Shown: positions 34,079 to 64,000 of the stretch, piece after piece
Layout of the letters: every line of letters starts with the position of its first letter
Numbering within the stretch: the first letter of the stretch is position 1
From: a candidate division WWE3 bacterium
GTDB taxonomy: Bacteria > Patescibacteriota > 4484-211 > GCA-002791395
Assembly: GCA_013335095.1 (NCBI GenBank)
Contig: JAAXWF010000004.1
Span: forward strand, 74,740 to 138,739
Direction of reading: 5' to 3'
Length of the DNA stretch: 64,000 nt
The notes under the pieces: model-generated
Told to the model about the DNA's origin: nothing
What the model saw: only the letters and a program-made list of their open reading frames with translations
Database searches by the model: none
Program-made: the position numbers and the translations under genes

Positions 34079-34377
34079 CCTCAAGTAGCCTATAATCATT
34101 GCATTAACCCCCTAAACATCCTATAATTAAAGTGCGTACAGCTACGCAAGTAGTTTTACGTACTTTGGTAATACCAAAGATGCACTTTTTTATACGCATG
34201 AATTTGAACTAATGTAACGTTCACGTTGCTCCTGCGCCTTATCCAGGCCGTTGAGGATATAATAGTTATGTCTTCTACGGCCCGGATAAGAGTGTCGGCC
34301 TTACAAGCCGACTCGGACAACCCCGCGCAATCGGGGTTTATTGGTGGCGGTTCTACCGCCCAGATGAGGAGATCGCA

Positions 34378-34683
34378 ATGGATACCGATCTGCTATGGAG
34401 CCGAATCGAGGAGCGGGCGGCGGTTATGGCGATAGTTGCGAGTGCGATACTGGACGAGGGGGGCACTTTCCCCGTCCGTTTTAATCGAGCACTCAAAATG
34501 GTCGCTGAAAATGAGATCGAACTTACGGTGAGGGAGTGGATACAGGTCCTTCGGGGCCTTGGCATCTACGACTTCAACCAGTACTTCGGGCTCATTGGAA
34601 ACGTCCGTGTACCTGGCGGAACGCTCCCGTACTACGATAAGTTCGATCGGGAGATGTCTGCTATCGATTGGCACGGTTTCTAA
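34378..34683 (+). CDS. Hypothetical small protein (island cassette gene 1)
   Basis: 101 aa, about 58% GC. Preceded by hairpin GGTGGCGGTTCTACCGCCCA and a GAGGAG RBS. Confidence 0.45.
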   Translation: MDTDLLWSRIEERAAVMAIVASAILDEGGTFPVRFNRALKMVAENEIELTVREWIQVLRGLGIYDFNQYFGLIGNVRVPGGTLPYYDKFDREMSAIDWHGF

Positions 34684-34721
34684 AAAGGTGGCGGTTCTAC
34701 CGCCCACAAGGAGAGGTACCA

Positions 34722-35126
34722 ATGGCGACCTCAGCAGGCAGCCGTGCGCAGCTCAAGTCCGTGATCGAGGCCCTCGGCGAAGTCTACACAGTCGCTCTGG
34801 ACCTGGGGTACAATCCCCAGCCGGGGCTTGACCGTAGAATCTTCGCCCGGATGGCTAGTGCCGCCCATAACGGCACGCACATCGTGATCGGAATACAGCG
34901 GGCCGCCAAGAGGGCTAAGGAGCTGGGTATCGAGATGAATCCCACCGATTGGCTCCCCTATCTGGGGGCCTTTGGGATCAACTCGTACGAGCTTCTGCTG
35001 CTGGCGATCGGGGACTACACGTTCCAGATCGTCGGCGATGACCTTACCAGCGCGATTGTCGCCGGCCTCAAGCCCTGGGACTTCCCCGGGTATGAGGGTT
35101 GGCGGCCGGAGGAATCCGGCAAATAG
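34722..35126 (+). CDS. Hypothetical small protein (island cassette gene 2)
   Basis: 134 aa. Start chosen at the ATG 7 nt after AAGGAGAGG, which follows a second copy of the GGTGGCGGTTCTACCGCCCA hairpin. Confidence 0.45.
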   Translation: MATSAGSRAQLKSVIEALGEVYTVALDLGYNPQPGLDRRIFARMASAAHNGTHIVIGIQRAAKRAKELGIEMNPTDWLPYLGAFGINSYELLLLAIGDYTFQIVGDDLTSAIVAGLKPWDFPGYEGWRPEESGK

Positions 35127-35286
35127 GTTCCGATTCGGCGTTTGCCGGGGCTGAGGGGGAGCAATCCACCCAAAGTCCCGGCCTTTTTTGTTATATCTCT
35201 TTTATTTCAATTTTTATTTGACGACCTACAATAATTAACCTATAATAATTTCGTCTTTTTCATCCGGATAACAAGGAGGTGGCTCA

Positions 35287-35868
35287 ATGAGCCAGAACCA
35301 AGGAACGCTACCAACCATTCTGGTAGACCTGTCGTTCAGGTATGCAGGAACGCTCCTGCATGCTACTCACATTGATGCCGATGGTAATGCCCAGGTTGAG
35401 TTCCCGATCAGCTTCGGCGGAGGACGACTCCGAAGTGGTCGACGCAAGAGTGAGTACTTCATCCTCACCCTAGAACTTTCTGAGCTAGTAAGAATCATGG
35501 CTCTCTTCCAGAACCTGATTCACCGGATCCCTGAGGTCCAGGCGATGGCCGAAAACGCCATCACGGTGATCTCGCAGCAGGGGACGAAACTAAACCGGGA
35601 GGTCACGATCAAGCCGATCGTACGCACCCTCGTGGTTGCGACATCCCTCCCATCACGGGATGAGTCAGAGGCCGAAGTTGTTCTGGCGGCGGGAACGCAG
35701 GTGAGCATCTGGGGAGTATGTGACCCAACTCACCCGTACTTCTACGCCACTATCGGGGGAAACCGTTCGGCGCTTATTCCGGCAACCAATGTCGAAAACG
35801 GCGCGGATCTGGCGACCCGAATCTTCAAGCAGGCGGCGGAGCTATTCCGCCCGCTGGGAGGTGAGTAA
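35287..35868 (+). CDS. Hypothetical protein (island cassette gene 3)
   Basis: 193 aa. Preceded by the conserved TATAAT-N10-TTTTCATCCGGATA-AAGGAGG leader. C-terminal half resembles the next ORF (GTQV..G motif). Confidence 0.45.
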   Translation: MSQNQGTLPTILVDLSFRYAGTLLHATHIDADGNAQVEFPISFGGGRLRSGRRKSEYFILTLELSELVRIMALFQNLIHRIPEVQAMAENAITVISQQGTKLNREVTIKPIVRTLVVATSLPSRDESEAEVVLAAGTQVSIWGVCDPTHPYFYATIGGNRSALIPATNVENGADLATRIFKQAAELFRPLGGE

Positions 35869-36173
35869 TGAGCAACCCCGGTCTTGACGAGCTCCCGCTT
35901 CGTATAACTGAGCGGGTTCATGACATGGTGAGAACGGAACCTGCCATAGTGGCTTACACCACGGTAGGGCTCCAACTGACCTCAGAAACCGCTGGTGCCC
36001 AAATTCTACCGATAGGCACACAAGTGCTCGTCGTCGGCATATTTGGGTACAATCCGCCACGACTAATCGTCATCTGGCCGGATGGATCTGAAAGTGGTGT
36101 GGAGAAGTCCATCATTGAAGATGGAGAGGCATTGATTACGAGGATCACTAAGCTCCGTGATCCATCGGCCTAG
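35868..36173 (+). CDS. Hypothetical small protein (island cassette gene 4)
   Basis: 101 aa. TAATG stop/start overlap with gene 3 (translational coupling). Followed by a strong terminator. Confidence 0.45.
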   Translation: MSNPGLDELPLRITERVHDMVRTEPAIVAYTTVGLQLTSETAGAQILPIGTQVLVVGIFGYNPPRLIVIWPDGSESGVEKSIIEDGEALITRITKLRDPSA

Positions 36174-39910: not shown

Positions 39911-40077
39911 AGCTAGTGTAAATACCGGCTAATGAGGGAATCTCATTGGCCGGTATATTAACGACACATACATTTCCATATCTCTCGACACGCTACCGTT
40001 TGCATAACATTATCGGCTTTGTTATCATTTCCCTGACTACAACCAGTAGTTGTTGGATAACGCAAGGGAGGTGCTCT

Positions 40078-41250
40078 GTGCCAAACCAAGACAGGATTGT
40101 CATCCTGTATGAGGTCAACGGCCATCGAGGTAGTTCTGAATACTTCGATATGACCTTTAATGATGCCCTGGCGATGTTTGTGCGGGAACGGCCGGAAATC
40201 GGTCCCCGACAGATCGCCCAGGTATTCCACGGGTTGGTCAGTAGTGAAAAGACCTACAACGGCTGGAGAGGCCGGGTCGACGCATACTACCTCAACGTTC
40301 CCCTTCCGGACCCAGATCCGATTGCCCCAGAAGTCGAAGACGAACTATCGGCCCAGTGCCCACGGTGCAAGGCCGATATCGGAGGATGGATCGTATCGAG
40401 CCTACCCCGGGACGATCTGTATCTTAACTTTGGGGTACCAAGTTTCGATTTCAGATGTCCAGGGTGTGGAACCGATTTAGAGATGTGGATACATAGCTAT
40501 TTGAACAAGCTTATGGCGGTGTTCAATGTAGTCCATGGAGGAATTGTAGAACGAGATAAGGCAGCACTGCGTTTAGTGCGCTTCTATCGCTCCGTTCAAC
40601 AGGTCCTGGTTGACCTGCATCAGCAGGAACCTGAGGTTTATAACGTCTTGGCTCATATGGTCGGACTCAAAGGAGTCTCGATTACCCAGAAGCAGGTAAT
40701 TATAGAACTGGGCCTGGGATCAGACTCCGTTCTAAGAAAGCTTATGGGTAAGGCAACAACGTTTTTGCGGCGCCACCCGCAAATGCAGGCAGCCTTCCGA
40801 TATCGGGATTTAAGCGACGAGGCAATAAATGCGTTCGTCGCCTCAGCCCAAGGAAGACAAGAAGAGGCGCTGGCAGAACTCGCGGCGCAAGTAGCCACGC
40901 TTTCGACGATGATCAATGAGGTCGCGAATCACCAACATGATGCGATCTTCAACCTCAGAGTCGAAGTGCTACTCCTGAGGGGCCTACCCCTGGCCGAAGC
41001 CCAGATCCTAGCCCTTCTTACCGTCGAGGATCTAGCGCTTACGCCAAGCCTGCGACGCTCGCTTAACATAGCACCCGTTCTCACCGAAATGCGAAACGCT
41101 GCCGGCAGAGTCTTTGCCGGTAATCTTTTGATCTGGCTCAGGTCAAAAGACCGAGAACAGGTAATCAAAAGTATCCCCAGAATGGGTCCATCTGGGATGG
41201 CCAGTATTGAAGGGGCATTCCTCCTTCTTGGGATTCAAGTTTACCCGTAA
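40078..41250 (+). CDS. Zinc-ribbon protein with sigma-70 region-4-like HTH (paralog B)
   Basis: About 390 aa from the GTG after GGGAGG. CPRC-x36-CPGC zinc ribbon. HTH segment VGLKGVSITQKQVIIELGLGSDSVLRKL. N-terminus parallels paralog A (MP..I.I..NG...GP). Confidence 0.5.
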   Translation: MPNQDRIVILYEVNGHRGSSEYFDMTFNDALAMFVRERPEIGPRQIAQVFHGLVSSEKTYNGWRGRVDAYYLNVPLPDPDPIAPEVEDELSAQCPRCKADIGGWIVSSLPRDDLYLNFGVPSFDFRCPGCGTDLEMWIHSYLNKLMAVFNVVHGGIVERDKAALRLVRFYRSVQQVLVDLHQQEPEVYNVLAHMVGLKGVSITQKQVIIELGLGSDSVLRKLMGKATTFLRRHPQMQAAFRYRDLSDEAINAFVASAQGRQEEALAELAAQVATLSTMINEVANHQHDAIFNLRVEVLLLRGLPLAEAQILALLTVEDLALTPSLRRSLNIAPVLTEMRNAAGRVFAGNLLIWLRSKDREQVIKSIPRMGPSGMASIEGAFLLLGIQVYP

Positions 41251-52457: not shown

Positions 52458-53165
52458 ATGCTTACCCACATTCGCCGGAATCAAACACTACTCATATTTA
52501 TAATTGGATCTATCGGCACGATAGCTGCGTATGTACTCTTTGTGCAATCGACCTATTTTATTATATTTACCACATGGGCCAAAGATCACCCAATTATTCT
52601 ATTCTTTGCTCTAGTGTCAGTAAAAATACTTTCAATTATTTGGCCACCACTGTCGGGAAGTATGCTACTAATCGGAATGATTCCAGCGATTGGATGGCCG
52701 TCAATTTATTTGATTGATTTTGTCGGAAGTATCATAGGATCATCAGTTTCATATTTCATCGGTGAAAAATACGGAATTACCTTCCTAAAAAAACTTTTTG
52801 ATGATGTAACGATTGAAAAGATTCAAAGTATCCATTTAATTCCAACAAGAGAAATTGAAGCAATATTTATACTACGAGTACTGTCAGGCGGAGTATTTTT
52901 TGAAGCAGTGTGTTATGGCGCTGGAATTATCGGGGCAAAATTCTCACATTTTTTTATTGCAAATGTGCTATTCCACCTAACGGTTGGCATTCCGATGTTC
53001 TATTTATTTGGCAATATTATGATTGGATCAAACCGATACCTCAGTATTGGCCTTCTCATAGGTATGGGGCTGCTTATTTATCGCTTGAGAAAGCGTTATT
53101 TCATCGTTAAACCGCGTATTGCAGCTCAAGATGTAACTACATCGTCTCGAAACCCCAAAAGATAG
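52458..53165 (+). CDS. DedA/TVP38 family membrane protein
   Basis: 235 aa. Multiple TM helices and conserved G-rich DedA motif region (FVGSIIGSSVSYFIGEKYG). Confidence 0.55.
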   Translation: MLTHIRRNQTLLIFIIGSIGTIAAYVLFVQSTYFIIFTTWAKDHPIILFFALVSVKILSIIWPPLSGSMLLIGMIPAIGWPSIYLIDFVGSIIGSSVSYFIGEKYGITFLKKLFDDVTIEKIQSIHLIPTREIEAIFILRVLSGGVFFEAVCYGAGIIGAKFSHFFIANVLFHLTVGIPMFYLFGNIMIGSNRYLSIGLLIGMGLLIYRLRKRYFIVKPRIAAQDVTTSSRNPKR

Positions 53166-53421
53166 TCACTTTATTATGTGAGGTTTTTATTATTCCTTTA
53201 CCGATGGTAAACTCGATTGATTTTCCATCCGGCGGCTGAATGACAACTCTATCCTGAATCAAAGAAATAAAGTTTACATGAAAAGGAAGAATATCAAACG
53301 GTCCAGTATCATTTAGACACGTAACCGATGTTGCGGGTCCATCATATAGGACTGCATCAGTACTTCTCACAAAGACTGATAGAATCGGGTTATCGAGTAC
53401 AAGTGGCAGAGGTGTATCCAT
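53137..53421 (-). CDS. atpC: F-type ATP synthase epsilon subunit
   Basis: 94 aa. Beta-sandwich N-domain pattern (GPFDILPFH). Position immediately downstream of atpD. Confidence 0.6.
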   Translation of the reverse strand: MDTPLPLVLDNPILSVFVRSTDAVLYDGPATSVTCLNDTGPFDILPFHVNFISLIQDRVVIQPPDGKSIEFTIGKGIIKTSHNKVTIFWGFETM

Positions 53422-53424
53422 AGA

Positions 53425-55719
<2,295 letters not shown>

Positions 55720-55723
<4 letters not shown>

Positions 55724-57183
55724 AGATTTGCGAATTCGTCTTTTATCTGAGAAACATTCTTCAATAACTGATCAAGAGAAGTCGCTTGAACGACTTTAGT
55801 CATCTTTTTTCGCTTATGCTCATCTAAATAGATATCAATCAGCTTTTTTCGGACTTCAAATAAAGCCTCAGTGTTTTTATCGGATAAAGCGCCGATCCAG
55901 ATCAAAGCAAACAATATAAGTTGAACATCTGGAGGAATAATTAAATTGTAGTGTTGATCAAACAAATCATGAATACGATCACCTAATGCAATCATTTGTT
56001 TAACTTCATCTGTTAATTCGGCTCCAAAGTGCGAATAGGTTTGGGATTTTTCATACGCCGATAAAAATGCCCCGAGTTCCCTATTGATCTCGCGCTTTAA
56101 GTTAGTTTGTGTCTGTCGACCGACACGGGTAACCGAAAGCTGAATGTTAATAGCCGGACGTTTACCGTTATAGTAAGCGTTACTATCGAAAAAGATATGA
56201 CCATCGGTCATTCCCATCAAATTGGTTGGGATGTACCCTGAAATATCACCGTCAACAGTTTCTATAACCGGCAAACAGGTAATCGAAACCTCACCCTTTT
56301 CTGGATGTCTAAAGTTACCTGCACGTTCAATCAATTTCGCATGCGTGTAAAAGATATCTCCCGGATATGAATCTCGTCCAGGGAATCGCCTGGCAAGCAA
56401 TGAAATCTCACGATAAAACTTAGCATGCTGCGACAAATCATCCAAAATCAATAAAACATCTTGGCCAAGGTCTCGAAAATATTCGGCAATGGTCATTGCG
56501 GAATACGGCGTTAAATACACAAGGCTGGGAGAATCATTTGAACTAGTGACGACCATCACCATATTTTTATCGATCCGCTCACGTCGGAAATGCTCCTGAA
56601 GCCGTTTAATCTCGGCCTTCTTTGCACCGATACATGCGTACACAACTAAAGAGTCTTCGTGGACCTGATTCTTTATTGCAGATAGCAAAAATGAAGTTTT
56701 ACCGGTTTTCCGATCACCCAAAATGAGCTCTCGTTGTCCTTTACCCAATGGAACCATCATATCGACAACGGTAACGCCAGTCGTAAAAGGCCGCTTAATC
56801 CGAGACCGGGTTTGTATTGCACCGATTTCATGATCAATCGGACGATATTCAGTTGGTTTCTCGTACATGTCTTCGGTGGATAACAAATTCCCCAGAGGAT
56901 CAAACACGTATCCAAGCAATTCTTTTCCGACCGGAACAGTTATAAAGGTATCACTGCGTACGACTTGAGTTCCGACACGAATAGGATCCTGGGAAAAGAC
57001 CAAAATTTCGACAACATCATGATTAATCGTAAATACTTCACCTATCTTTCCATCATCAAACACAACGACTTCATATAAGCGAACATTCGGTAAGCCGACA
57101 ACGACTACAATCGGATGACGAACTTCTTTTACATATCCGAACTCACCTATAGAATCAAAATATTCTGCGAATGTTTTTACCAT
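55720..57183 (-). CDS. atpA: F-type ATP synthase alpha subunit
   Basis: 487 aa. P-loop GDRKTGKTS, conserved ILDDLSQHA and arginine-finger region. Confidence 0.9.
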
Positions 57184-57184
57184 A

Positions 57185-57682
57185 TTATTTTAATGTTGTT
57201 GCGATTATTGACGATACTGAAACTTCACTCAGTGCCTTACGAAGTGAATAATCTTTATAGTACCCACCCGCCTGGATTAGTGCGCCACCAATGATATCCG
57301 TATCAACACTTATATCCAATAAGATTTTACGATTAAAATTTTGCGCTAACCAACTATTGAGTTGTTTCATCTGAAATCCTTTTGGTTCATACGCAATCGT
57401 TATTTTTAATGTAGGAATTGAAGAAAGTTCTTTTTTGAGTAACGTTAATTCGCGTTGTACCGAGACCCGATCTTGAATATCTACCCCCGATTCGCGGACC
57501 CATTGCATAACTTGGAGTTTATAGTTTATTGAGACACACCGATCGAACTTATCATCCATCGACTCCTTGAACTTAAACAATGATTCGATGAGCTCATCTA
57601 TTTGACTGATCAAATTATGCAACTCAGCCGCCGTGTTCAGATCTTCAAATAACTGGATAATAGAAAGTCGCCGCTTAATCAT
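57185..57682 (-). CDS. atpH: F-type ATP synthase delta subunit
   Basis: 165 aa helical protein located between atpF and atpA. Assignment is mainly positional. Confidence 0.5.
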   Translation of the reverse strand: MIKRRLSIIQLFEDLNTAAELHNLISQIDELIESLFKFKESMDDKFDRCVSINYKLQVMQWVRESGVDIQDRVSVQRELTLLKKELSSIPTLKITIAYEPKGFQMKQLNSWLAQNFNRKILLDISVDTDIIGGALIQAGGYYKDYSLRKALSEVSVSSIIATTLK

Positions 57683-58376
57683 ATTTTAGAAGTCCATCTT
57701 CCTTAGCTTGGCTCAAGGCCTTTATAACAAGTGTTTCATGATCATTGATTGATATGGCATCTGGTAATATCTCCTGGGCTAGGTGCAAAATAATATCATC
57801 GAGAGATTCCTCCATCTCCTGAATACGGTATTTTTTATAATTGGCGATTTCTTGCTGAGCATTATTAAATTCTTGATCAACCTTTTTCTCTAAATATTCC
57901 TGCAAAGAAAGGCTCTTACTCTGTAAGGCTTCTTGAATATGACCTAATTCCTGATCACCTAATGTACGAACTTTGTTCATAGTTTCTTCCACCGCATTCG
58001 CATAATCAGTCTTTAAGATGTTGAAGGTCTCATCATATTGTTTACTGAGTTGGTCTAGTTTTTGGCTTAATTCAGTCGAAAATTGTTCTACCGCGCCATT
58101 TAAATCATGGTTGACCTTATCTTTCATCCGATCGGTAAAAAAGTCGGTTTGTTTTAATATTTCAGTTGATTTATCAATAGCCTCGGCGATCATCATTTTT
58201 TCCTTTTGATGAGCCTGGTCTAGTATATCGTCGCTGTTGGAAGTCAACTTATGTTCATGATTCTCATATGATTTTTTCTTATCCATTAAGTAAAACAGCG
58301 TTAGACCAAGCAAGATCATCAATAACGTATTACCTAATAGAGAGATAAAAATTAACAGATTAGTGAACATGGGCAA
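57675..58376 (-). CDS. atpF: F-type ATP synthase b subunit
   Basis: 233 aa. Single N-terminal TM helix followed by long charged coiled-coil. First gene of the atp cluster. Confidence 0.5.
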   Translation of the reverse strand: MPMFTNLLIFISLLGNTLLMILLGLTLFYLMDKKKSYENHEHKLTSNSDDILDQAHQKEKMMIAEAIDKSTEILKQTDFFTDRMKDKVNHDLNGAVEQFSTELSQKLDQLSKQYDETFNILKTDYANAVEETMNKVRTLGDQELGHIQEALQSKSLSLQEYLEKKVDQEFNNAQQEIANYKKYRIQEMEESLDDIILHLAQEILPDAISINDHETLVIKALSQAKEDGLLKYD

Positions 58377-58457: not shown

Positions 58458-61400
58458 CTACCAGATTGCGCTCCAATATATGGTTGCATCAGTAGCAGAA
58501 GCGGATTCTACATAAATAACAAATCCATCTTTGGTGATCGATTCAACCCAGACCTTCGTATTATATGAAGGAGTTGTATTGATACTCTTTGGAGCCTCTT
58601 TCCAATCTTTAACCACAGGGATTCGGACTTGTCCGGCCGGTAGCGCAATTGAGCCACGGATCGAATCATTGGCATAGATCAAACCTTCTTTAATCTTGAG
58701 GTTTCCATCGATATCTACTTCGACTGCGCCGCCCATTATATCGAGGCTAGCCGCTCGAGTTGGTTGCAGTTTCAACGAAGATGCAACTGTTTCTAAGGAA
58801 CCGTTTTCACCATTAATCGTCAACATTCCGTTAGTTATATTCTTATTTACGACCAATTCTCCAACCGTTGCCTTTCCAAGAACAGTTAATGAATCCGAAA
58901 TTGCAGCATTTGTTAACTCGACTGAATTCATCTTCAATGTAGCACTTGTTTCTAATAGGGTGGCTAAATCATTGGCCGCTCCGCTAAAGGCACTCGGCTG
59001 ATACCAACCAGCTTGAATCATGACCAAAATTTGAGCACATCGAGATCCCGACGGCGCACCCTTAGGACATGCTATTGGCTCACCAACGCCATTATTCGGA
59101 TCAAATGGAGAAAGGGCTCGGCCAATTACCCAACCTGCATCAATTGCTTTTTGTCCAAATCCAATAACATCACTACCCGAGATTGGATCTCCAACTTCGA
59201 TATTTCCCGCTGTTGAGACTACATTAACCGGGATACGTCCGTTCAACGCAACGGCAACTTCTTTCTTGCTGCGTGGATCATTGCTTTGTCCAAACCCACC
59301 AAGTAAGACACCTGGTTTTTCAGATATTGCTCCGAGTACAGCACTTCGACTATTAGCTTTCTTTACGAATTCAGTTTCATAATCACCACTCTGAAATGCG
59401 CCAGGTACTGCATCTGGAACAGTTTGTGGATCAATCGAAACAAGGTCGCCAGCCTGTATAGATTCATCCAGTGTTGGGAAGTTTTCCGCTATATCATCAA
59501 TAGCAAAACTCGAAGAAATACCATATACAGTACCAGCCGCACGTGAAGCATCAATACAATCATCAGCGGTATCTAAACTATCGTCAGCACAAATAGCACC
59601 ATAGGCTAAGATTCCACTACCACCAATATTGGTTGAGGTTAAGGTCTGATCGCTACTTAATACAAGATCGTTGTTAATAGACACGTTACCAGCAGCTTCT
59701 AGAATAATTCCACCACTGTTGAATGTTCGCATTGTTAAGTCATTGCTTTCAAAGCTCTCACCCGCTTCGATGGTAAATGGACCATTCGATTTAATATAGG
59801 CGGCGGTTTGATTACTGAATAACATATCATACGCAATGGCAACGTCACCGGCAGCATTAAAGGAGTGTGGTAATTCCGAGGTAATTGCAGTTTCGGTAAT
59901 AGAGAACAACGATGAAGTACCGTCACGGGCAATAAATACATTACCAACGTTACCGTTAGAACCGACAGTGACCGCAAAAACATCACCCGTTGCAGTGGTC
60001 GCTGATCCAGGTGTCCAGTTAACGTTCATGACCGTACCGGTAGTTAATGCGGTTGATGATGACCCAAAGGTATATGCCGTACCGGTTGTTAATGAATTGG
60101 AGGCATACGTTAATCCGTTAGTTGTAGTACCAGTGAAGTTTTGTGTCCAAGTATTCGAGCCTTGGTTCACAACGAGCGCTGCGTCTAAGTCCAACGTGTC
60201 CTCAAGCTCAGCGAAGTCGAGACAATCGGTACAAGCAAAATCAGTCGCGTTAACCGTATCACCACTAAATGTAACGCTAGAGCCGGTCGTTGATACGGTA
60301 AGATTTCCTGATGAGTCAGTCTGAAATTCACTATAAACAGATCCATCAGTATATGTTAACCGAAGTTGCGCGGCAGATGCATCTAATACATCAAGTCGAC
60401 GATCGGGTCCGGAAGTACCAATACCTACATTAGCCGAAAAATAGTTTGAATCTTCGCCAGTTGAATAAATACCCCAGGCAGTGGCGGCAGCATCTGTTTG
60501 GGTAAATGCGGAATAATATCCATATACGTTATCGTTACCGGTGGCGTTTGCATCAATGGTGATATCATTTCGGATTGCATACATTGTTCGGGTTGAACCT
60601 GTATTTGTATCTTCAAAGTCAACCGAAAAACCAATCGCATTGCCAGTCGAAGAATCGATATTTACATCAATGACACCTGCCGTAGTGGTTGTATCAGTAG
60701 CCGCTGCATCAATTTGGAGATAGTTTGCGGCAGGTAAACTCCATACAGTGTTTCCTGAATCATTAACTGTTAAAACCGTGGTTCCGTTATCCTGAACGAT
60801 AAAATCACCAGTCGATGACAAGTTCGTGGTAACATTACCCGCACCGCTCGCAGTAAAGGTTAAATTATTAGCACCCATTGTGATACCCGTTGAAGCATCA
60901 AGGGTCATGGCATCAATAAGTTCAGTAAAATCGAGACAATCAGTACACACAAAGTCAGACGCCGTAATCGTACTACTGCTAGCCAAAATGTTTCCACCAC
61001 TAAATGACCACTCATCATTTGTAGTGTACGTAATCGTTCCGGTATCTCCATCTGACGCAAACATTGAAAGTACGGCATTAGCGGTTGCTCCAGTGCCGAT
61101 ACGTGCGGTGTTAGCCGAGACGTCAACGCTAAATGCGGACGCCAGAGTCGATCCACCAACCGCAAAATCCTCAGCTGTATCAGTTAAATACGTAATACCA
61201 GTGCCATCGGTCCATGGACTTGAAGCACCGCCACATGTCTGCCATTCAAATGTAGAGCCCGTTGATTCATAAGTTAGACATTCTTCATCAGCCTCTGAAT
61301 CAACCGAAGCCATATCTACGGGTAAAAGAGTATCATCTAAGATCTCACCAGCACTAATTGATCCAGTAGGCAGCACAACCTCACTGTCGCCGGTACCATT

Positions 61401-64000
61401 AGTTGTGACAGTAACCGAAGTCACATCGGCCGACCCGATGGTTAATGCACTCGCACCAACGGCATCAAAAGTTGAGGCAAATACACTGTTTGATCCTGCC
61501 GAAATATTACCTGAGACATTTACATCCCCACCACTTGGGGCAATTGTTAGATCTCCCCCACTGTTAACGGTGAAAGAGTTATAAACGGAACCATCGGTGT
61601 AAGTTAATCGTAGTTGTTCAGTAGTTGCTAAGATATCGGCCTTTGCGTCGGCTCCAGTTGTACCAATACCAATACGTGAATTTGTCGTATCAGCAACCAG
61701 TAATCCATTTTCTACATTTAAGGATGTAGTACTGCTATCAGCAAGGTCCCAAGCCTGTGCTTGCAATAATGTTACGCCACCGGGTGCATCAAAAACGACA
61801 TCACCACTATTGTATGTTTTAAGTGTTAAATTGTTGCTCTCAAAGTTATCGCCGACCTCTAAATACAATGGTGATTTGGTTTTGATCGTACTACTCGTCT
61901 GATTGGTAAATTGTAGATCATATGCCATTGACACATCACCCGCGGCAGTGAAGGAATGCGGCAAATTCGATGTTATGCCAGTTTCAGAAATGGCAAATAG
62001 TGGAGTTGTACCATCCCGAACAACAAAGAGGTTACCGCTCGTTGTTCCATTTGATCCAATGGTTATTCCAAACAAATCGCCAGTAGCAGTAGTCGCGGAT
62101 CCAGGTGTCCAGTTTACATCCATAATTGATCCCGAGGTTAAAGCAGTAGAAGTTGAACCAAAGGTATATGCAGTTCCCGTTGTTAAGGAGTTCGAGGCAT
62201 AGGTTAACCCATTGGTTGTTGTTCCGGTAAAGTTTTGTGTCCAAGTATTTGTTCCTTGATTTACCACAAGCGCGGCATCTAAGTCCAACGTATCTTCAAG
62301 CTCAGAGAAATCAATACAATCGGTACAAATAAAGTCAGATGCCGTCACCGTACTGCTGCTGGCCAAAATGTTTCCACCAGTAAATGACCACTCGTCATTC
62401 GTTGTATACGTGATATTGCCCGTATCGCCATCAGATGCAAACATTGAAAGAACGGCATTGGCGGTGGCTCCAGTTCCAAATCGTACGGTATTTGCGGAAA
62501 CGTCGACACTAAATGGAGAGGCTAAGGTTGATCCTCCGATCGCCAGGTCTTCAGCCGTGTCGGTTAGGTAACTAATACCAGTACCATCAGTCCAGATATT
62601 GGCTGCATTTGAACAGGGTTGCCATTCAAAATCTCCAGTGGTGGTCTCGCGCGTCAAACACTCTTCATCAGCGGCGGTGTCAACTGATTTAAGATCGGTT
62701 GCTAAGATGGTTGCATCCAAAATCTCGGTTGAATCGATTGATCCAGCTGGTAACACTACTTCGGCCGTACCAGTTCCATCGGTTGTAACGGTTACCGAAG
62801 TAACATCAGCAGAACCGATGGTTAAGGCACTTGCACCAACAGCGTCAAACGTTGAAGCAAACACGCTGTTTGATCCAGCCGAAATATTACCTGAGACATT
62901 TACGTCCCCACCACTTGGCGCAATCGTTAAATCTCCACCACTGTTAACCGTAAATGAGTTGTACACGGAACCATCGGTATACGTTAATCTCAGTTGTTCA
63001 GTTGTTGAAAGAACGTCTAATTTTGCATCAGGTCCGGTTGTACCAATGCCAACAGTTCCAGACATATAGTTTCGATCTTCGCCGGTAACATAAAATCCAT
63101 ACGCGGTTGCATTTGCATCATTTTGGGTCAGGCCGAGGTAATTTCCATACACGGTATCATCACCCGTAGCATTCGCATCAATCGTTACATCGGTGCGGAA
63201 TGCGTAGAACGTCTTGGCAGTACCGGTATTTGTGTCTTGGTAATCGAGAGCTATTCCTATGTTTCCTGTAGTACTGGAATCGACATCCATATCGATAACT
63301 CCAGCGGTCGTTGTTGAATCATTGGTCGCACCATCAATCTGGAGATAATTCGCTACAGGTAAACTCCATACCGTATTTCCTGAATCATTAACTGTTAGCA
63401 CAGTTGTTCCGTTATCCTGAACGATAAAGTCACCAGTTGATGACAAGTTCGTGGTAATATTACCCGCACCGCTCGCCGTAAAGGTTAAATTATTAGCACC
63501 CATAGTTATACCAGTTGAAGCATCTAGAGTCATCGCATCAATCAGTTCGGTGAAATCGAGACAATCAGTACAAATAAAGTCAGACGCCGTAATCGTGCTA
63601 CTGCTGGCTAAGATATTTCCACCGCTAAATGACCACTCATCATTAGTCGTGTACGTAATCGTTCCGGTATCTCCATCCGATGCATACATTGAAAGAATCG
63701 CATTTGCTGTTGCTCCCGTACCAAGTCTGGCTGTATTCGCCGAAACATCAACGCTAAAGGCTGATGCGAGCGTCGAACCACCTACTGCGAGATCTTCGGC
63801 AGTATCAGTCAAGTACGTAATGCCACTACCATCAGTCCAAGGACCAACCCCATCTCCACACGTCTGCCATTCAAAATCTCCAGTGGTGGTCTCGCGCGTC
63901 AAACACTCTTCATCAGCGGCTGTGTCTACTGATTTAAGATCAGTGGCTAAGATTGTTGCATCCAAAATCTCGGTTGAATCGATTGATCCAGCTGGTAATA
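58458..64000 (-). CDS. Giant tandem-repeat cell-surface protein, 5' end beyond window
   Basis: Open frame to the window edge. At least three about 420-460 aa repeat units (each beginning ILDATILATDLKSVDTAADEECL...FEWQTCG) with near-identical DNA copies (e.g. 62.70-62.76 kb vs 63.95-64.0 kb). Unique about 550-aa C-terminal domain. Confidence 0.7.
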   Translation of the reverse strand, partial: LPAGSIDSTEILDATILATDLKSVDTAADEECLTRETTTGDFEWQTCGDGVGPWTDGSGITYLTDTAEDLAVGGSTLASAFSVDVSANTARLGTGATANAILSMYASDGDTGTITYTTNDEWSFSGGNILASSSTITASDFICTDCLDFTELIDAMTLDASTGITMGANNLTFTASGAGNITTNLSSTGDFIVQDNGTTVLTVNDSGNTVWSLPVANYLQIDGATNDSTTTAGVIDMDVDSSTTGNIGIALDYQDTNTGTAKTFYAFRTDVTIDANATGDDTVYGNYLGLTQNDANATAYGFYVTGEDRNYMSGTVGIGTTGPDAKLDVLSTTEQLRLTYTDGSVYNSFTVNSGGDLTIAPSGGDVNVSGNISAGSNSVFASTFDAVGASALTIGSADVTSVTVTTDGTGTAEVVLPAGSIDSTEILDATILATDLKSVDTAADEECLTRETTTGDFEWQPCSNAANIWTDGTGISYLTDTAEDLAIGGSTLASPFSVDVSANTVRFGTGATANAVLSMFASDGDTGNITYTTNDEWSFTGGNILASSSTVTASDFICTDCIDFSELEDTLDLDAALVVNQGTNTWTQNFTGTTTNGLTYASNSLTTGTAYTFGSTSTALTSGSIMDVNWTPGSATTATGDLFGITIGSNGTTSGNLFVVRDGTTPLFAISETGITSNLPHSFTAAGDVSMAYDLQFTNQTSSTIKTKSPLYLEVGDNFESNNLTLKTYNSGDVVFDAPGGVTLLQAQAWDLADSSTTSLNVENGLLVADTTNSRIGIGTTGADAKADILATTEQLRLTYTDGSVYNSFTVNSGGDLTIAPSGGDVNVSGNISAGSNSVFASTFDAVGASALTIGSADVTSVTVTTNGTGDSEVVLPTGSISAGEILDDTLLPVDMASVDSEADEECLTYESTGSTFEWQTCGGASSPWTDGTGITYLTDTAEDFAVGGSTLASAFSVDVSANTARIGTGATANAVLSMFASDGDTGTITYTTNDEWSFSGGNILASSSTITASDFVCTDCLDFTELIDAMTLDASTGITMGANNLTFTASGAGNVTTNLSSTGDFIVQDNGTTVLTVNDSGNTVWSLPAANYLQIDAAATDTTTTAGVIDVNIDSSTGNAIGFSVDFEDTNTGSTRTMYAIRNDITIDANATGNDNVYGYYSAFTQTDAAATAWGIYSTGEDSNYFSANVGIGTSGPDRRLDVLDASAAQLRLTYTDGSVYSEFQTDSSGNLTVSTTGSSVTFSGDTVNATDFACTDCLDFAELEDTLDLDAALVVNQGSNTWTQNFTGTTTNGLTYASNSLTTGTAYTFGSSSTALTTGTVMNVNWTPGSATTATGDVFAVTVGSNGNVGNVFIARDGTSSLFSITETAITSELPHSFNAAGDVAIAYDMLFSNQTAAYIKSNGPFTIEAGESFESNDLTMRTFNSGGIILEAAGNVSINNDLVLSSDQTLTSTNIGGSGILAYGAICADDSLDTADDCIDASRAAGTVYGISSSFAIDDIAENFPTLDESIQAGDLVSIDPQTVPDAVPGAFQSGDYETEFVKKANSRSAVLGAISEKPGVLLGGFGQSNDPRSKKEVAVALNGRIPVNVVSTAGNIEVGDPISGSDVIGFGQKAIDAGWVIGRALSPFDPNNGVGEPIACPKGAPSGSRCAQILVMIQAGWYQPSAFSGAANDLATLLETSATLKMNSVELTNAAISDSLTVLGKATVGELVVNKNITNGMLTINGENGSLETVASSLKLQPTRAASLDIMGGAVEVDIDGNLKIKEGLIYANDSIRGSIALPAGQVRIPVVKDWKEAPKSINTTPSYNTKVWVESITKDGFVIYVESASATDATIYWSAIW

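What the first reader, a model, noticed from the sequence alone, without database searches (positions are those of the whole stretch)
58458..64000. Giant (>1835 aa) surface protein built from near-identical roughly 1.3-kb tandem repeats, sitting where atpB/atpE should be
The minus-strand ORF runs off the window. It contains at least three 420-460 aa repeat units, each beginning with a two-Cys motif (DEECL...FEWQTCG). At DNA level the copies are almost identical; for example 62.70-62.76 kb matches 63.95-64.0 kb. This implies recent expansion, or ongoing recombination and phase variation. It is also a likely assembly-collapse hazard.

The unique C-terminal 550 aa is Gly/Ser/Thr-rich and beta-type, reminiscent of phage tail-fibre/adhesin tips.

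The gene occupies the slot immediately upstream of atpF, where atpB/atpE normally lie, and the atp cluster here lacks the a and c subunits.
Basis: seen in the sequence. Interest (0 to 1): 0.6.

Follow-up and report, generated by a model that had tools for sequence, protein, structure and literature searches.

The report
Giant phage-tail-fibre-like surface fibre gene
This is the 3' half of a gene for a very long (over 3,384 residues) cell-surface fibre of an ultrasmall candidate-phyla-radiation bacterium, assembled from shuffled phage-tail-fibre-type modules and ending in a phage phi29-type self-cleaving folding domain, most likely used to grip a host cell; it has not displaced normal ATP synthase a/c genes, because relatives do not keep those genes at this position either.

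Summary
The ORF is real. It is open on the minus strand from 58458 to the window edge (1,846 codons) and matches residues 1539-3384 of NCBI NTV31613.1, a partial protein from a candidate division WWE3 MAG.

It is not a simple tandem array. It is a mosaic of four module types (H, A, B, T) followed by about 406 unique C-terminal residues. Copies inside the window are only 67-80% identical at DNA level, with mostly synonymous differences, so they are old. Upstream of the window, two 689-residue super-units are 100% identical in protein sequence, and both available assemblies break inside the gene.

The C-terminal region holds a beta-barrel domain homologous to the autocleaving intramolecular chaperone of phage phi29 gp12, with a conserved D-x-A-E motif, and it ends in a tailspike/lectin-like beta-sandwich. 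Homologues are 1,000-5,000-residue CPR proteins. They are anchored by an N-terminal signal/TM segment, or by a MerR-type HTH followed by a TM segment. The closest characterised analogues are the Bdellovibrio MAT fibres.

No a or c subunit gene lies in the window. In 67 of 80 relatives, the slot upstream of atpF holds a c-subunit-like protein fused to the same beta-barrel domain, often next to a giant fibre gene.

Verdict: new variant of a known kind; moderately interesting.

The parts
58458..63998 (-). 3' 55% of the giant fibre gene: 1,846 codons plus the stop. Equals aa 1539-3384 of NTV31613.1 (P0096). The gene continues at least 4.6 kb beyond the window and off the source contig.
63504..63998 (-). 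Module H1 (aa 1-165). Sequence LPAGSID...DEECL..FEWQTCG...TASDFICTDC, with two Cys pairs.
   Evidence: The roughly 45-aa Cys cassette is shared with IMG/VR phage tail fibres.
63039..63503 (-). Module A1 (aa 166-320), insert type A.
   Evidence: 75% aa and 74% nt identity to A3. Found in about 15 of 92 homologues.
62754..63038 (-). Module T1 (aa 321-415). Starts with VGIGTTGPDAKLDVL, the same loop motif that aligns with Bdellovibrio MAT fibre Bd2133.
62259..62753 (-). Module H2 (aa 416-580).
   Evidence: 82% aa and 78% nt identity to H1
61674..62258 (-). Module B2 (aa 581-775), insert type B.
61374..61673 (-). Module T2 (aa 776-875).
   Evidence: 93% aa but only 80% nt identity to T1
60879..61373 (-). 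Module H3 (aa 876-1040).
60414..60878 (-). Module A3 (aa 1041-1195).
60228..60413 (-). Truncated module T3' (aa 1196-1257). It runs straight into a CTDC junction.
59679..60227 (-). Module B3 (aa 1258-1440).
59496..59678 (-). Unique linker before the chaperone-like domain (aa 1441-1501). It contains Cys1470 and Cys1481 and ends ...SSSFAID.
59484..59495 (-). D1502-I-A1504-E1505. Aligns with D692-F-A-E695 of phi29 gp12. Inferred autocleavage site between D1501 and D1502.
58989..59495 (-). Beta-barrel domain of the phi29 gp12 / Peptidase_G2 intramolecular-chaperone type (aa 1502-1670).
   Evidence: Profile against PDB: 3gqh E 1.1e-5. AF2 pLDDT above 90. Foldseek top hit 3suc, E 5e-4. Pfam PF11962 hit in 10 of 30 family members.
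58662..58988 (-). Low-confidence helical and beta connector (aa 1671-1779).
   Evidence: pLDDT 43-65
58461..58661 (-). Terminal beta-sandwich (aa 1780-1846), resembling tailspike tips and H-type lectins.
   Evidence: AF2 pLDDT above 90. Matches to 7eea, 2ccv, pyocin fibre tips and pectate-lyase tailspike C-termini.
57675..58376 (-). atpF-like gene (233 aa: one N-terminal TM segment plus coiled coil), 81 nt downstream of the giant gene. Assigned by position and architecture only.
53137..57682 (-). atpH, atpA, atpG, atpD and atpC.

Best explanation
The region encodes the C-terminal 1,846 residues of a surface fibre of at least 3,384 residues. The organism is a Patescibacteria (CPR) bacterium, labelled candidate division WWE3 in the source record.

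Shown:
- The protein is a mosaic of four module types that also occur, in other numbers and orders, in dozens of 1,000-5,000-residue CPR proteins.
- One module starts with the loop motif of Bdellovibrio MAT and S74-type trimeric beta-helix fibres.
- Another module carries a two-Cys cassette that is also found in phage tail fibres.
- The unique C-terminus contains a beta-barrel domain homologous to the autocleaving intramolecular chaperone of phage phi29 appendage protein gp12. The D-x-A-E motif is conserved at the position of the gp12 cleavage site.
- The protein ends in a tailspike/lectin-like beta-sandwich.

Inferred:
- The chain is held in the membrane by its missing N-terminus (signal/TM anchor, or MerR-type HTH plus TM), with the C-terminus pointing outward.
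- Three chains are zipped together from the C-terminal chaperone-like domain.
- That domain then cuts the chain between D1501 and D1502.
- The fibre serves to recognise and hold the surface of the host cell on which this episymbiont lives.
- Exchange and duplication of modules alters fibre length and specificity. This includes a perfect 689-residue duplication just outside the window.
For: ORF and identity:
- establish the ORF.
- It equals NTV31613.1 residues 1539-3384.

Mosaic structure:
- Among 92 homologues, H, T and B modules occur in 40-58, in varying numbers and orders.

Anchoring:
- Homologue N-termini are a signal/TM segment, or an HTH followed by a single TM segment.

Chaperone-like domain:
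- The family profile hits the phi29 gp12 autochaperone. 3gqh scores E 1.1e-5 and begins exactly at the aligned Asp; 6qz9 scores E 3e-5.
- The uncleaved crystal form 3suc carries Q at the aligned Glu.
- D and E are each present in 66 of 70 fibre copies of the domain. They are present in 1 and 0 of 67 non-fibre copies.
- AF2 gives pLDDT above 90 for the domain, and the best PDB fold match is 3suc.
- 37 viral models match at E<=1e-3, many of them tail fibres or tailspikes.

Other fibre links:
- The repeat profile weakly hits Bdellovibrio MAT fibres 8ond and 8ojn through the GnvGiGTtaPtakL motif. MAT biology is described in PMC10769870.
- The Cys cassette is 66% identical to IMG/VR tail-fibre ORFs, one with a PHROG tail-fibre E-value of 3e-85.

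Context:
- The surrounding genes are cellular, not prophage.
Against: - The N-terminus of this particular protein is not available, so anchoring and topology rest on homologues.
- The window protein itself scores below the Pfam Peptidase_G2 threshold (13.4 against 25 bits).
- The chaperone-like domain is not terminal. 176 residues follow it, including a well-folded sandwich that would be lost on cleavage.
- Several homologues have two such domains in tandem. The domain may therefore be a permanent structural or binding domain rather than a released chaperone.
- The monomer AF2 model of the repeats is poor (pLDDT 57), so the trimeric beta-helix architecture is not shown.
- MAT similarity is weak (E about 1e-3).
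- No experimental data exist for any member of this CPR family.
Confidence: 0.65

Rival explanations
1. It is a structural tail fibre of a prophage, or of a phage-tail-like particle, integrated next to the atp operon. It would not be a cellular surface protein.
For: - Phage-type modules are present: the gp12-type chaperone domain, a tailspike-like tip and a Cys cassette shared with viral tail fibres.
Against: - No phage genes lie in the neighbouring 15 kb, which holds a sigma factor, an ABC transporter, a DedA/VTT protein and atp genes.
- tblastn finds no match for the repeats or the C-terminus in 50,697 phage genomes, and there are no PHROG hits.
- Homologues carry N-terminal membrane anchors or an HTH plus TM segment.
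- Homologues sit in cellular contexts and next to atp operons across many CPR lineages.
- At more than 3,384 aa, it is far beyond usual tail fibres.
Confidence: 0.04
2. It is a general envelope or coat protein (an S-layer-like or spacer fibre), or a nutrient- or particle-binding protein. It would not be a host-recognition adhesin, and the beta-barrel would be a permanent domain that does not cleave.
For: - The same beta-barrel occurs without D/E as a stable extracytoplasmic domain on c-like membrane proteins.
- The domain is internal here and is duplicated in some homologues.
- The composition is Thr/Ser/Gly/Asp-rich, which is typical of many envelope proteins.
- The CPR literature notes fibrous coats made of giant proteins (PMC8080830).
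Against: - D-x-A-E is conserved specifically in the fibre-embedded copies. That is hard to explain without catalysis.
- Module shuffling between homologues and a lectin/tailspike-like tip are hallmarks of receptor-binding fibres.
Confidence: 0.2
3. The repeat structure is largely an assembly artefact, with collapsed or looped repeats.
For: - Two assemblies end inside the gene.
- In NTV31613.1, aa 1-689 equal aa 690-1378 exactly, and the partial protein starts exactly on a repeat boundary. A contig that walked around a repeat loop would look like this.
Against: - Inside the window the copies differ at 20-33% of nucleotides and in insert type. They cannot be collapsed or duplicated reads.
- The Logan contig reproduces the 3' 876 codons and the junction with atpF independently.
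Confidence: 0.1

Closest known systems
Bdellovibrio bacteriovorus MAT (mosaic adhesive trimer) fibres, e.g. Bd2133, Bd3182 (PMC10769870; PDB 8ond, 8ojn)
   Same: - They are cellular, not viral, phage-tail-fibre-like surface fibres of a bacterium that must attach to other bacteria.
- They have a mosaic build, with a conserved proximal part and swapped distal parts.
- They carry a repeated GxVGIGTxxPxxxL loop motif.
- Some members end in an autocleaving intramolecular chaperone.
- Their tips have lectin-like or beta-sandwich folds.
   Different: - MAT proteins are about 600-1,300 aa, whereas this one exceeds 3,384 aa.
- MAT chaperones are of the S74 type; here the domain is the phi29 gp12 (G2) beta-barrel type and is followed by more domains.
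- MATs have a signal peptide plus a conserved 130-aa N-terminal domain. Relatives of this protein use TM anchors or a MerR-type HTH plus TM segment.
- Sequence similarity is only marginal (E about 1e-3).
- The host organism is a monoderm-like CPR bacterium.
Phage phi29 pre-neck appendage protein gp12 and its C-terminal autochaperone (Pfam Peptidase_G2; PDB 3gqh, 3suc, 6qz9)
   Same: - The beta-stranded chaperone-domain fold is shared.
- A profile match starts exactly at the post-cleavage Asp.
- D-x-A-E is conserved.
- The domain follows a long beta-rich shaft.
   Different: - gp12 is 854 aa, and its chaperone is the extreme C-terminus and is discarded.
- Here 176 more residues follow, including a folded tip.
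- Some relatives have two copies.
- The window protein is below the Pfam threshold.
- The ATP dependence reported for gp12 release could not operate outside a cell.
Giant surface proteins of other CPR bacteria (e.g. Vampirococcus lugosii, PMC8080830) and predicted Saccharibacteria adhesins (PMC11665869)
   Same: - They are very large membrane-associated proteins in ultrasmall episymbionts or predators.
- They are proposed to mediate host recognition and a fibrous cell surface.
   Different: - Those proteins are described with WD40, TPR, PKD and similar domains.
- The phage-fibre modules, the gp12-type domain and the link to the atp operon are not described there, as far as the searchable library shows.

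Membership tests
Peptidase_G2 / phi29 gp12-type intramolecular chaperone | Sequence match to Pfam PF11962 at or above the gathering score | tested here: not met
   The window C-terminus scores 13.4 bits against a cut-off of 25 (E 0.05). Ten of 30 aligned family members match at E<=1, best 9.4e-7. Homologue P0008 scores E 0.001.
Peptidase_G2 / phi29 gp12-type intramolecular chaperone | Homology to the solved gp12 autochaperone, starting at the cleavage-site Asp, with the Asp and Glu conserved | tested here: met
   Profile A1 against PDB gives 3gqh_A E 1.1e-5 (chain residue 1 = the aligned Asp), 6qz9 E 3.1e-5 and 3suc E 1.1e-3. D1502, A1504 and E1505 are invariant in A1. D and E are each present in 66 of 70 fibre copies.
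Peptidase_G2 / phi29 gp12-type intramolecular chaperone | Beta-stranded chaperone fold | tested here: met
   AF2 gives pLDDT above 90 over aa 1501-1670. Foldseek against PDB ranks 3suc first (E 5e-4, probability 1.0, 207 columns).
Peptidase_G2 / phi29 gp12-type intramolecular chaperone | Domain forms the extreme C-terminus | tested here: not met
   176 residues follow the domain (aa 1671-1846), including a confident beta-sandwich. Homologues have 300-600 aa after it, or two copies.
Peptidase_G2 / phi29 gp12-type intramolecular chaperone | Autoproteolytic release after trimerisation | not testable with these tools
   Needs expression of wild type against D1502N/E1505Q.
MAT (mosaic adhesive trimer) superfamily | Signal peptide followed by the conserved roughly 130-aa N-terminal beta-rich domain | not testable with these tools
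   The N-terminus lies beyond the window and beyond the source contig.
MAT (mosaic adhesive trimer) superfamily | Capping-loop motif of the trimeric beta-helix | tested here: met
   VGIGTTGPDAKL, IGIGTTGADAKA and VGIGTSGPDRRL occur at the start of T1-T3 (eight T-module starts of this kind in NTV31613.1). They align to Bd2133 GNVGIGATAPTAKL and related loops. The consensus is described in PMC10769870.
MAT (mosaic adhesive trimer) superfamily | Intertwined homotrimeric fibre | tested here: inconclusive
   Only a monomer could be modelled, with pLDDT 57. No multimer tool was available.
MAT (mosaic adhesive trimer) superfamily | Significant sequence homology to Bdellovibrio MATs | tested here: inconclusive
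   8ond E 1.1e-3 and 8ojn E 3.6e-3, carried mainly by the loop motif.
   No hit in the window protein, even at E<=10 on the C-terminus. S74 is present in some homologues (P0016, P0050).
   No Pfam hit. Matches to pectate-lyase-superfamily tailspikes cover only the 69-72-residue terminal sandwich. The AF2 model of the repeats gives no confident beta-helix (pLDDT 57), so a beta-helix is not excluded structurally.
H-type lectin domain | Fold and sequence match to Helix pomatia agglutinin-type domains | tested here: inconclusive
   Foldseek gives 2ccv E 0.015, probability 1.0 and TM (target) 0.47. A BFVD 'H-type lectin domain' model scores E 7e-4. There is no Pfam hit.
F-type ATP synthase a and c subunits at this position | atpB/atpE homologues adjacent to atpF | tested here: not met
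   - Window: no motif, phmmer or six-frame profile hit anywhere.
- Relatives: the slot holds a c-like fusion protein, and no a subunit is within about 10 kb.

The most novel reading that the evidence does not exclude
The giant fibre and the adjacent 'ATP synthase' operon may form one functional unit.

Observations behind this reading:
- In this CPR clade the operon has no a subunit nearby.
- Its c-like subunit lacks the ion-binding carboxylate.
- That c-like subunit carries, on the outside of the membrane, the same beta-barrel domain that ends the fibre.
- A giant fibre gene sits beside the operon in 31 related loci, usually divergently transcribed.
- 19 of those giant ORFs start with a cytoplasmic MerR-type DNA-binding domain.

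Two versions are possible:
- The fibre docks on the c-like ring through homotypic barrel contacts.
- The fibre acts as a membrane-tethered contact sensor whose HTH controls the divergent atp promoter, coupling host attachment to energy metabolism.

In the window organism an inversion would have placed the fibre gene head-to-tail with atpF.
Probability: 0.1. Interest if true: 0.85.

Novelty: new variant of a known kind. Interest (0 to 1): 0.55.

Why it matters
How ultrasmall CPR/Patescibacteria recognise and hold on to their host cells is largely unknown beyond type IV pili.

This gene gives a concrete, testable candidate. It belongs to a widespread family: 3,834 cluster representatives carry the barrel domain at E<=1e-3. 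The family consists of very long fibres built from phage receptor-binding parts, parallel to the MAT fibres of the predator Bdellovibrio. It has a predicted self-cleavage site that can be mutated, and a tip domain that can be screened for ligands.

The work also corrects an apparent anomaly. The atp cluster is not 'missing' a and c because of this gene. The whole clade has an unusual operon with a c-like fusion protein, which deserves study of its own.

Tried and rejected
- **Extending the window.** An exact 67-mer from 63822-63888 is absent from genome contigs and metagenome contigs. Exact-product look-up of the atpF-like protein and of P0096 found nothing. The atpH look-up gave a Logan contig that itself starts inside the gene.
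- **Direct family scans.** Pfam, PHROGs and PDB sequence searches of the whole protein gave no hits.
- **Second homologue search.** Using the C-terminus alone returned only 3 proteins.
- **Monomer AF2 of the repeat region.** The model was poor (pLDDT 57), so I did not use it for fold search.
- **Fusion hypothesis.** I considered whether the giant's barrel domain came from fusion with the c-like gene, and rejected it. The domain is closest to the barrels of other giant fibres and keeps D-x-A-E.
- **Prophage origin.** Rejected.
- **Promoter and terminator scan.** The 81-nt gap to atpF gave nothing on the coding strand.
- **Literature.** Searches found no description of this CPR fibre family or of the c-like fusion.
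Full report
**1. The observation**

A minus-strand reading frame has its stop codon at 58458-58460 and stays open to the last in-frame codon of the window at 63998. That is 1,846 codons.

Direct repeats with start-to-start spacings of 1,380 and 1,245 nt are present. Their identity is 76-93%, and Tandem Repeats Finder reports no array.

Chunk-wise self-comparison of the protein shows a mosaic, not a uniform tandem repeat. There are four module types:
- H, about 165 aa. It reads LPAGSID...DEECL..FEWQ.C...DF.CTDC. Copies start at aa 1, 416 and 876.
- A, about 155 aa, at aa 166 and 1041.
- B, about 190 aa, at aa 581 and 1258.
- T, about 95 aa, starting VGIGTTGPDAKLDVL. Copies are at aa 321 and 776, with a truncated copy at 1196.

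The order in the window is H-A-T, H-B-T, H-A-T'-B, followed by about 406 unique residues (aa 1441-1846).

Codon-aligned comparison gives 67-80% nucleotide identity between copies, and about 51% for T3'. The longest exact run is 56 nt. There is a clear excess of synonymous differences. T1 and T2, for example, are 93% identical in protein but 80% in DNA, with 42 synonymous and 7 non-synonymous codon differences.

The copies inside the window are therefore old paralogues kept by purifying selection. They are not recent duplicates, and they are too different to be assembly artefacts.

**2. The rest of the gene**

An exhaustive HMMER search with the C-terminal domain found a 3,384-residue protein (P0096) that is 100% identical to the query.
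- Its last 1,846 residues equal the window product exactly.
- It is NCBI NTV31613.1, 'hypothetical protein HGA91_06575, partial [candidate division WWE3 bacterium]', on a 143,351-nt contig.
- It has no start codon, so the gene runs off that contig. The true protein is longer than 3,384 residues.
- In the extra 1,538 residues, aa 1-689 and aa 690-1378 are identical. A third copy begins at 1379, with 3 differences in 160 residues.
- The known part contains 8 T modules, 7 H modules (five with DEECL, two with an NGQCL variant), at least 4 B modules and 2 A modules.

An independent Logan contig from run SRR11449211 starts inside module H3. It reproduces the last 876 codons and the junction with the atp genes.

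They do not hold for the part that was read. Whether the two perfect units are real cannot be decided without long reads.

**3. Relatives**

A word-indexed search found 92 homologues of 1,000-3,200 residues. Almost all named ones are from Patescibacteria: Dojkabacteria, Roizmanbacteria, Microgenomates, WWE3, Uhrbacteria, Collierbacteria and Moranbacteria.
- Modules H, T and B each occur in 40-58 of these proteins, and A in about 15. They appear in different copy numbers and orders. This is a shuffled, mosaic superfamily.
- N-termini fall into two classes. One is a signal/TM segment within the first 30 residues. The other is one or two MerR-type HTH domains, or phage-integrase SAM-like domains, followed by a single TM helix at residues 80-290. 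That implies an N-in, C-out membrane-anchored fibre.
- Two homologues examined in their genomes lie among ordinary cellular genes and next to other giant Laminin_G-rich proteins.
- Nothing similar is found by tblastn in 50,697 phage genomes.
- The window flank holds no phage genes.

**4. The C-terminal region**

The whole protein has no Pfam, PHROG or PDB sequence hit.

An alignment of the conserved region from 30 family members (A1) has invariant D, A and E at its start. In the window protein these are D1502, A1504 and E1505. The profile from this alignment hits the autochaperone of phage phi29 appendage protein gp12:
- 3gqh scores E 1.1e-5.
- 6qz9 scores E 3.1e-5.
- 3suc scores E 1.1e-3.

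Chain 3gqh is the released fragment, and it begins at the aligned Asp (DFAEYF). The 'pre-mature' crystal form 3suc carries Gln at the aligned Glu. This is consistent with that Glu being needed for cleavage (an inference from the deposited sequences and the entry title).

Pfam Peptidase_G2 is matched by 10 of the 30 members, best E 9.4e-7. The window protein itself scores below threshold.

AlphaFold2 with a 32-sequence alignment gives pLDDT above 90 for two regions: aa 1501-1670, a beta-barrel, and aa 1780-1846, a beta-sandwich. The connector between them has low confidence.

Foldseek against the PDB gives these matches:
- 3suc ranks first, with E 5e-4 over 207 columns.
- The barrel also resembles phage capsid decoration proteins.
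- The terminal sandwich matches the cyanophage Pam1 tailspike tip, Helix pomatia agglutinin, and the tips of R-pyocin and phage AP22 fibres.

Against predicted viral structures, 37 models match at E<=1e-3. They include tail fibres, an Mtd-N-domain protein, the C-termini of pectate-lyase-type tailspikes and an H-type lectin protein.

The chaperone type is G2, not S74.

**5. The repeats**

The monomer AF2 model of H3-A3-T3'-B3 is poor (pLDDT 57), as expected if the fold needs three chains. I did not use it further.

The profile of that alignment gives weak hits to two Bdellovibrio bacteriovorus MAT fibres, Bd2133 (8ond, E 1.1e-3) and 8ojn (E 3.6e-3). The hits are carried by the GnvGiGTtaPtakL motif that begins each T module.

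The MAT paper describes this capping-loop motif. It also describes mosaic trimeric fibres on the predator's surface, with S74 or other tips, used for prey recognition (PMC10769870).

The two-Cys cassette of module H (LK.VD.A.DEECLT.E.TTGDFEWQ.C) is 39-66% identical to segments of large ORFs in four IMG/VR viral contigs. One of these ORFs is a clear tail fibre (PHROG E 3e-85) that follows a J-like central fibre gene.

**6. The atp question**

Downstream of the giant gene lie an atpF-like gene, then atpH, atpA, atpG, atpD and atpC. The atpF-like gene has one TM segment plus a coiled coil but no Pfam hit.

No a or c subunit is detectable anywhere in the window by four methods:
- motif search;
- a six-frame profile search;
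- inspection of all multi-TM ORFs.

Eighty related loci were fetched using AtpA. They share at most 59% identity and come from Roizman-, Levy-, Woese-, Ames-, Shapirobacteria and others.

In 67 of them, the gene directly upstream of atpF encodes a 240-330-residue protein with three parts:
- a signal peptide;
- the same beta-barrel domain as in the giant (hmmsearch with A1, E 1e-20 to 1e-34);
- a C-terminal two-helix hairpin.

A profile of that hairpin (A4) hits ATP synthase c subunits as its seven best PDB matches, with E 2.5e-3 to 0.1 over the whole hairpin. The GRNP loop aligns to ARQPE, and a hydrophobic residue sits at the position of the ion-binding carboxylate. Pfam ATP-synt_C is only marginal. 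One JGI annotation calls a member 'F0F1-type ATP synthase membrane subunit c', and the rest are 'hypothetical'.

These barrels lack the Asp and Glu of D-x-A-E (1 and 0 of 67). The barrels in giant proteins keep them (66 of 70 each).

No a subunit was detected in any of the loci.

In 31 of the 67 loci, an ORF of at least 700 aa lies within 1.5 kb upstream of the c-like gene. Of the 32 such ORFs, 28 are divergently oriented. Nineteen begin with a MerR-type HTH like that of the fibre family. About ten show module similarity to this protein.

The conclusions for the atp question are these:
- The giant gene is a habitual neighbour of this operon in the clade.
- The 'slot' is not an atpB/atpE slot.
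- What is special in the window is that the giant gene is co-oriented with atpF, abuts it directly, and no c-like gene lies between them.
- The window's barrel is closest to those of other giants, not to c-like proteins, so it is not a fusion product.
- An inversion of a [giant + c-like] segment would produce the observed order. It would place the c-like gene beyond the giant's 5' end. This cannot be tested, because the contig ends inside the gene.

**7. Mechanism**

Shown:
- the modular composition;
- homology and fold of the gp12-type domain, with its conserved motif;
- a tailspike-like terminal sandwich;
- membrane anchors in relatives;
- a cellular genomic context.

Inferred:
- The protein is exported with its C-terminus distal.
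- The C-terminal barrel nucleates trimerisation of the beta-rich shaft, as in gp12 and S74 fibres (PMC4690869).
- The barrel then cleaves the chain between D1501 and D1502.
- The mature fibre binds structures on the host cell of this presumed episymbiont, by analogy with MAT fibres.
- Unequal recombination between modules changes length and specificity.

Open points:
- The barrel is followed by 176 residues with a folded tip, which would leave with it on cleavage.
- Some relatives carry two barrels.
- gp12 release is reported to involve ATP, which is not available outside the cell.

A non-cleaving, permanent role for the barrel is therefore a serious alternative.

**8. Verdict**

The finding is a real and fairly unusual gene. 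Its kind, a cellular fibre built from phage receptor-binding parts, is known from Bdellovibrio. The CPR version differs in four ways:
- size;
- chaperone type;
- anchor;
- a conserved neighbourhood with an atypical atp operon.

I rate it as a new variant of a known kind, with interest 0.55. The most novel reading not excluded is functional coupling between the fibre and the a-less operon with its c-like fusion protein. I put that at about 10% probability. It would be of high interest if true.

Noticed in passing
L004-L083 (e.g. L010:6096-6890, L004:15-842, L016:1100-1882), directly upstream of atpF: In 67 of 80 related Patescibacteria loci, the gene before atpF encodes a 240-330-aa protein. 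It has a signal peptide, the same beta-barrel as the giant's chaperone-like domain (without the Asp and Glu), and a C-terminal hairpin. The hairpin matches ATP synthase c subunits by profile, but the ion-binding carboxylate position is hydrophobic. No a subunit was detected within about 10 kb in any locus. Nearly all members are annotated 'hypothetical'.
   Followed up: partly
L010:1-5706(-), L079:3-7805(-), L073:1-5538(-) and 28 further loci: An ORF of at least 700 aa lies within 1.5 kb upstream of the c-like/atp operon in 31 related loci. It is usually divergent. Nineteen of the ORFs start with MerR-type HTH domains, so a DNA-binding domain is fused to a TM segment and a huge extracellular fibre. 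The synteny between fibre gene and atp operon is conserved across several CPR phyla.
   Followed up: partly
P0096 (NTV31613.1) aa 1-1378, i.e. about 0.5-4.6 kb beyond the window's right edge: Two 689-residue super-units (T-H'-T-H-B) are 100% identical in protein sequence, and the partial protein starts exactly on a unit boundary. This is either a very recent 2,067-nt tandem duplication or a contig that walked a repeat loop.
   Followed up: partly
Homologues P0057, P0060, P0006, P0061, P0062, P0066, P0040: These homologues carry two gp12-type barrel domains in tandem, 250-300 residues apart, each with D-x-A-E. That is unexpected for a terminal chaperone that is cleaved off once.
   Followed up: no
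L084:5713-9711 and L087:5650-9267 (IMG/VR viral contigs): Viral tail-fibre ORFs share the roughly 45-residue two-Cys cassette of module H at 39-66% identity. It looks like a small exchangeable element common to phage fibres and CPR cellular fibres.
   Followed up: partly
window 34200-36000: A GC-rich island of 54-61% G+C sits in a roughly 41% G+C background. It contains a few 100-190-aa ORFs and has no Rfam match. It may be foreign DNA.
   Followed up: no
window 57675-58376 (-): The atpF-like gene product (233 aa, one N-terminal TM segment plus a long coiled coil) has no Pfam ATP-synt_B hit. It is assigned only by position and architecture. Relatives have the same unusually long form, about 230-240 aa.
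   Followed up: no
window 40200-41100: A second stretch of raised G+C (50-56%) overlaps the 434-aa ORF at 39946-41250. I did not examine it.
   Followed up: no
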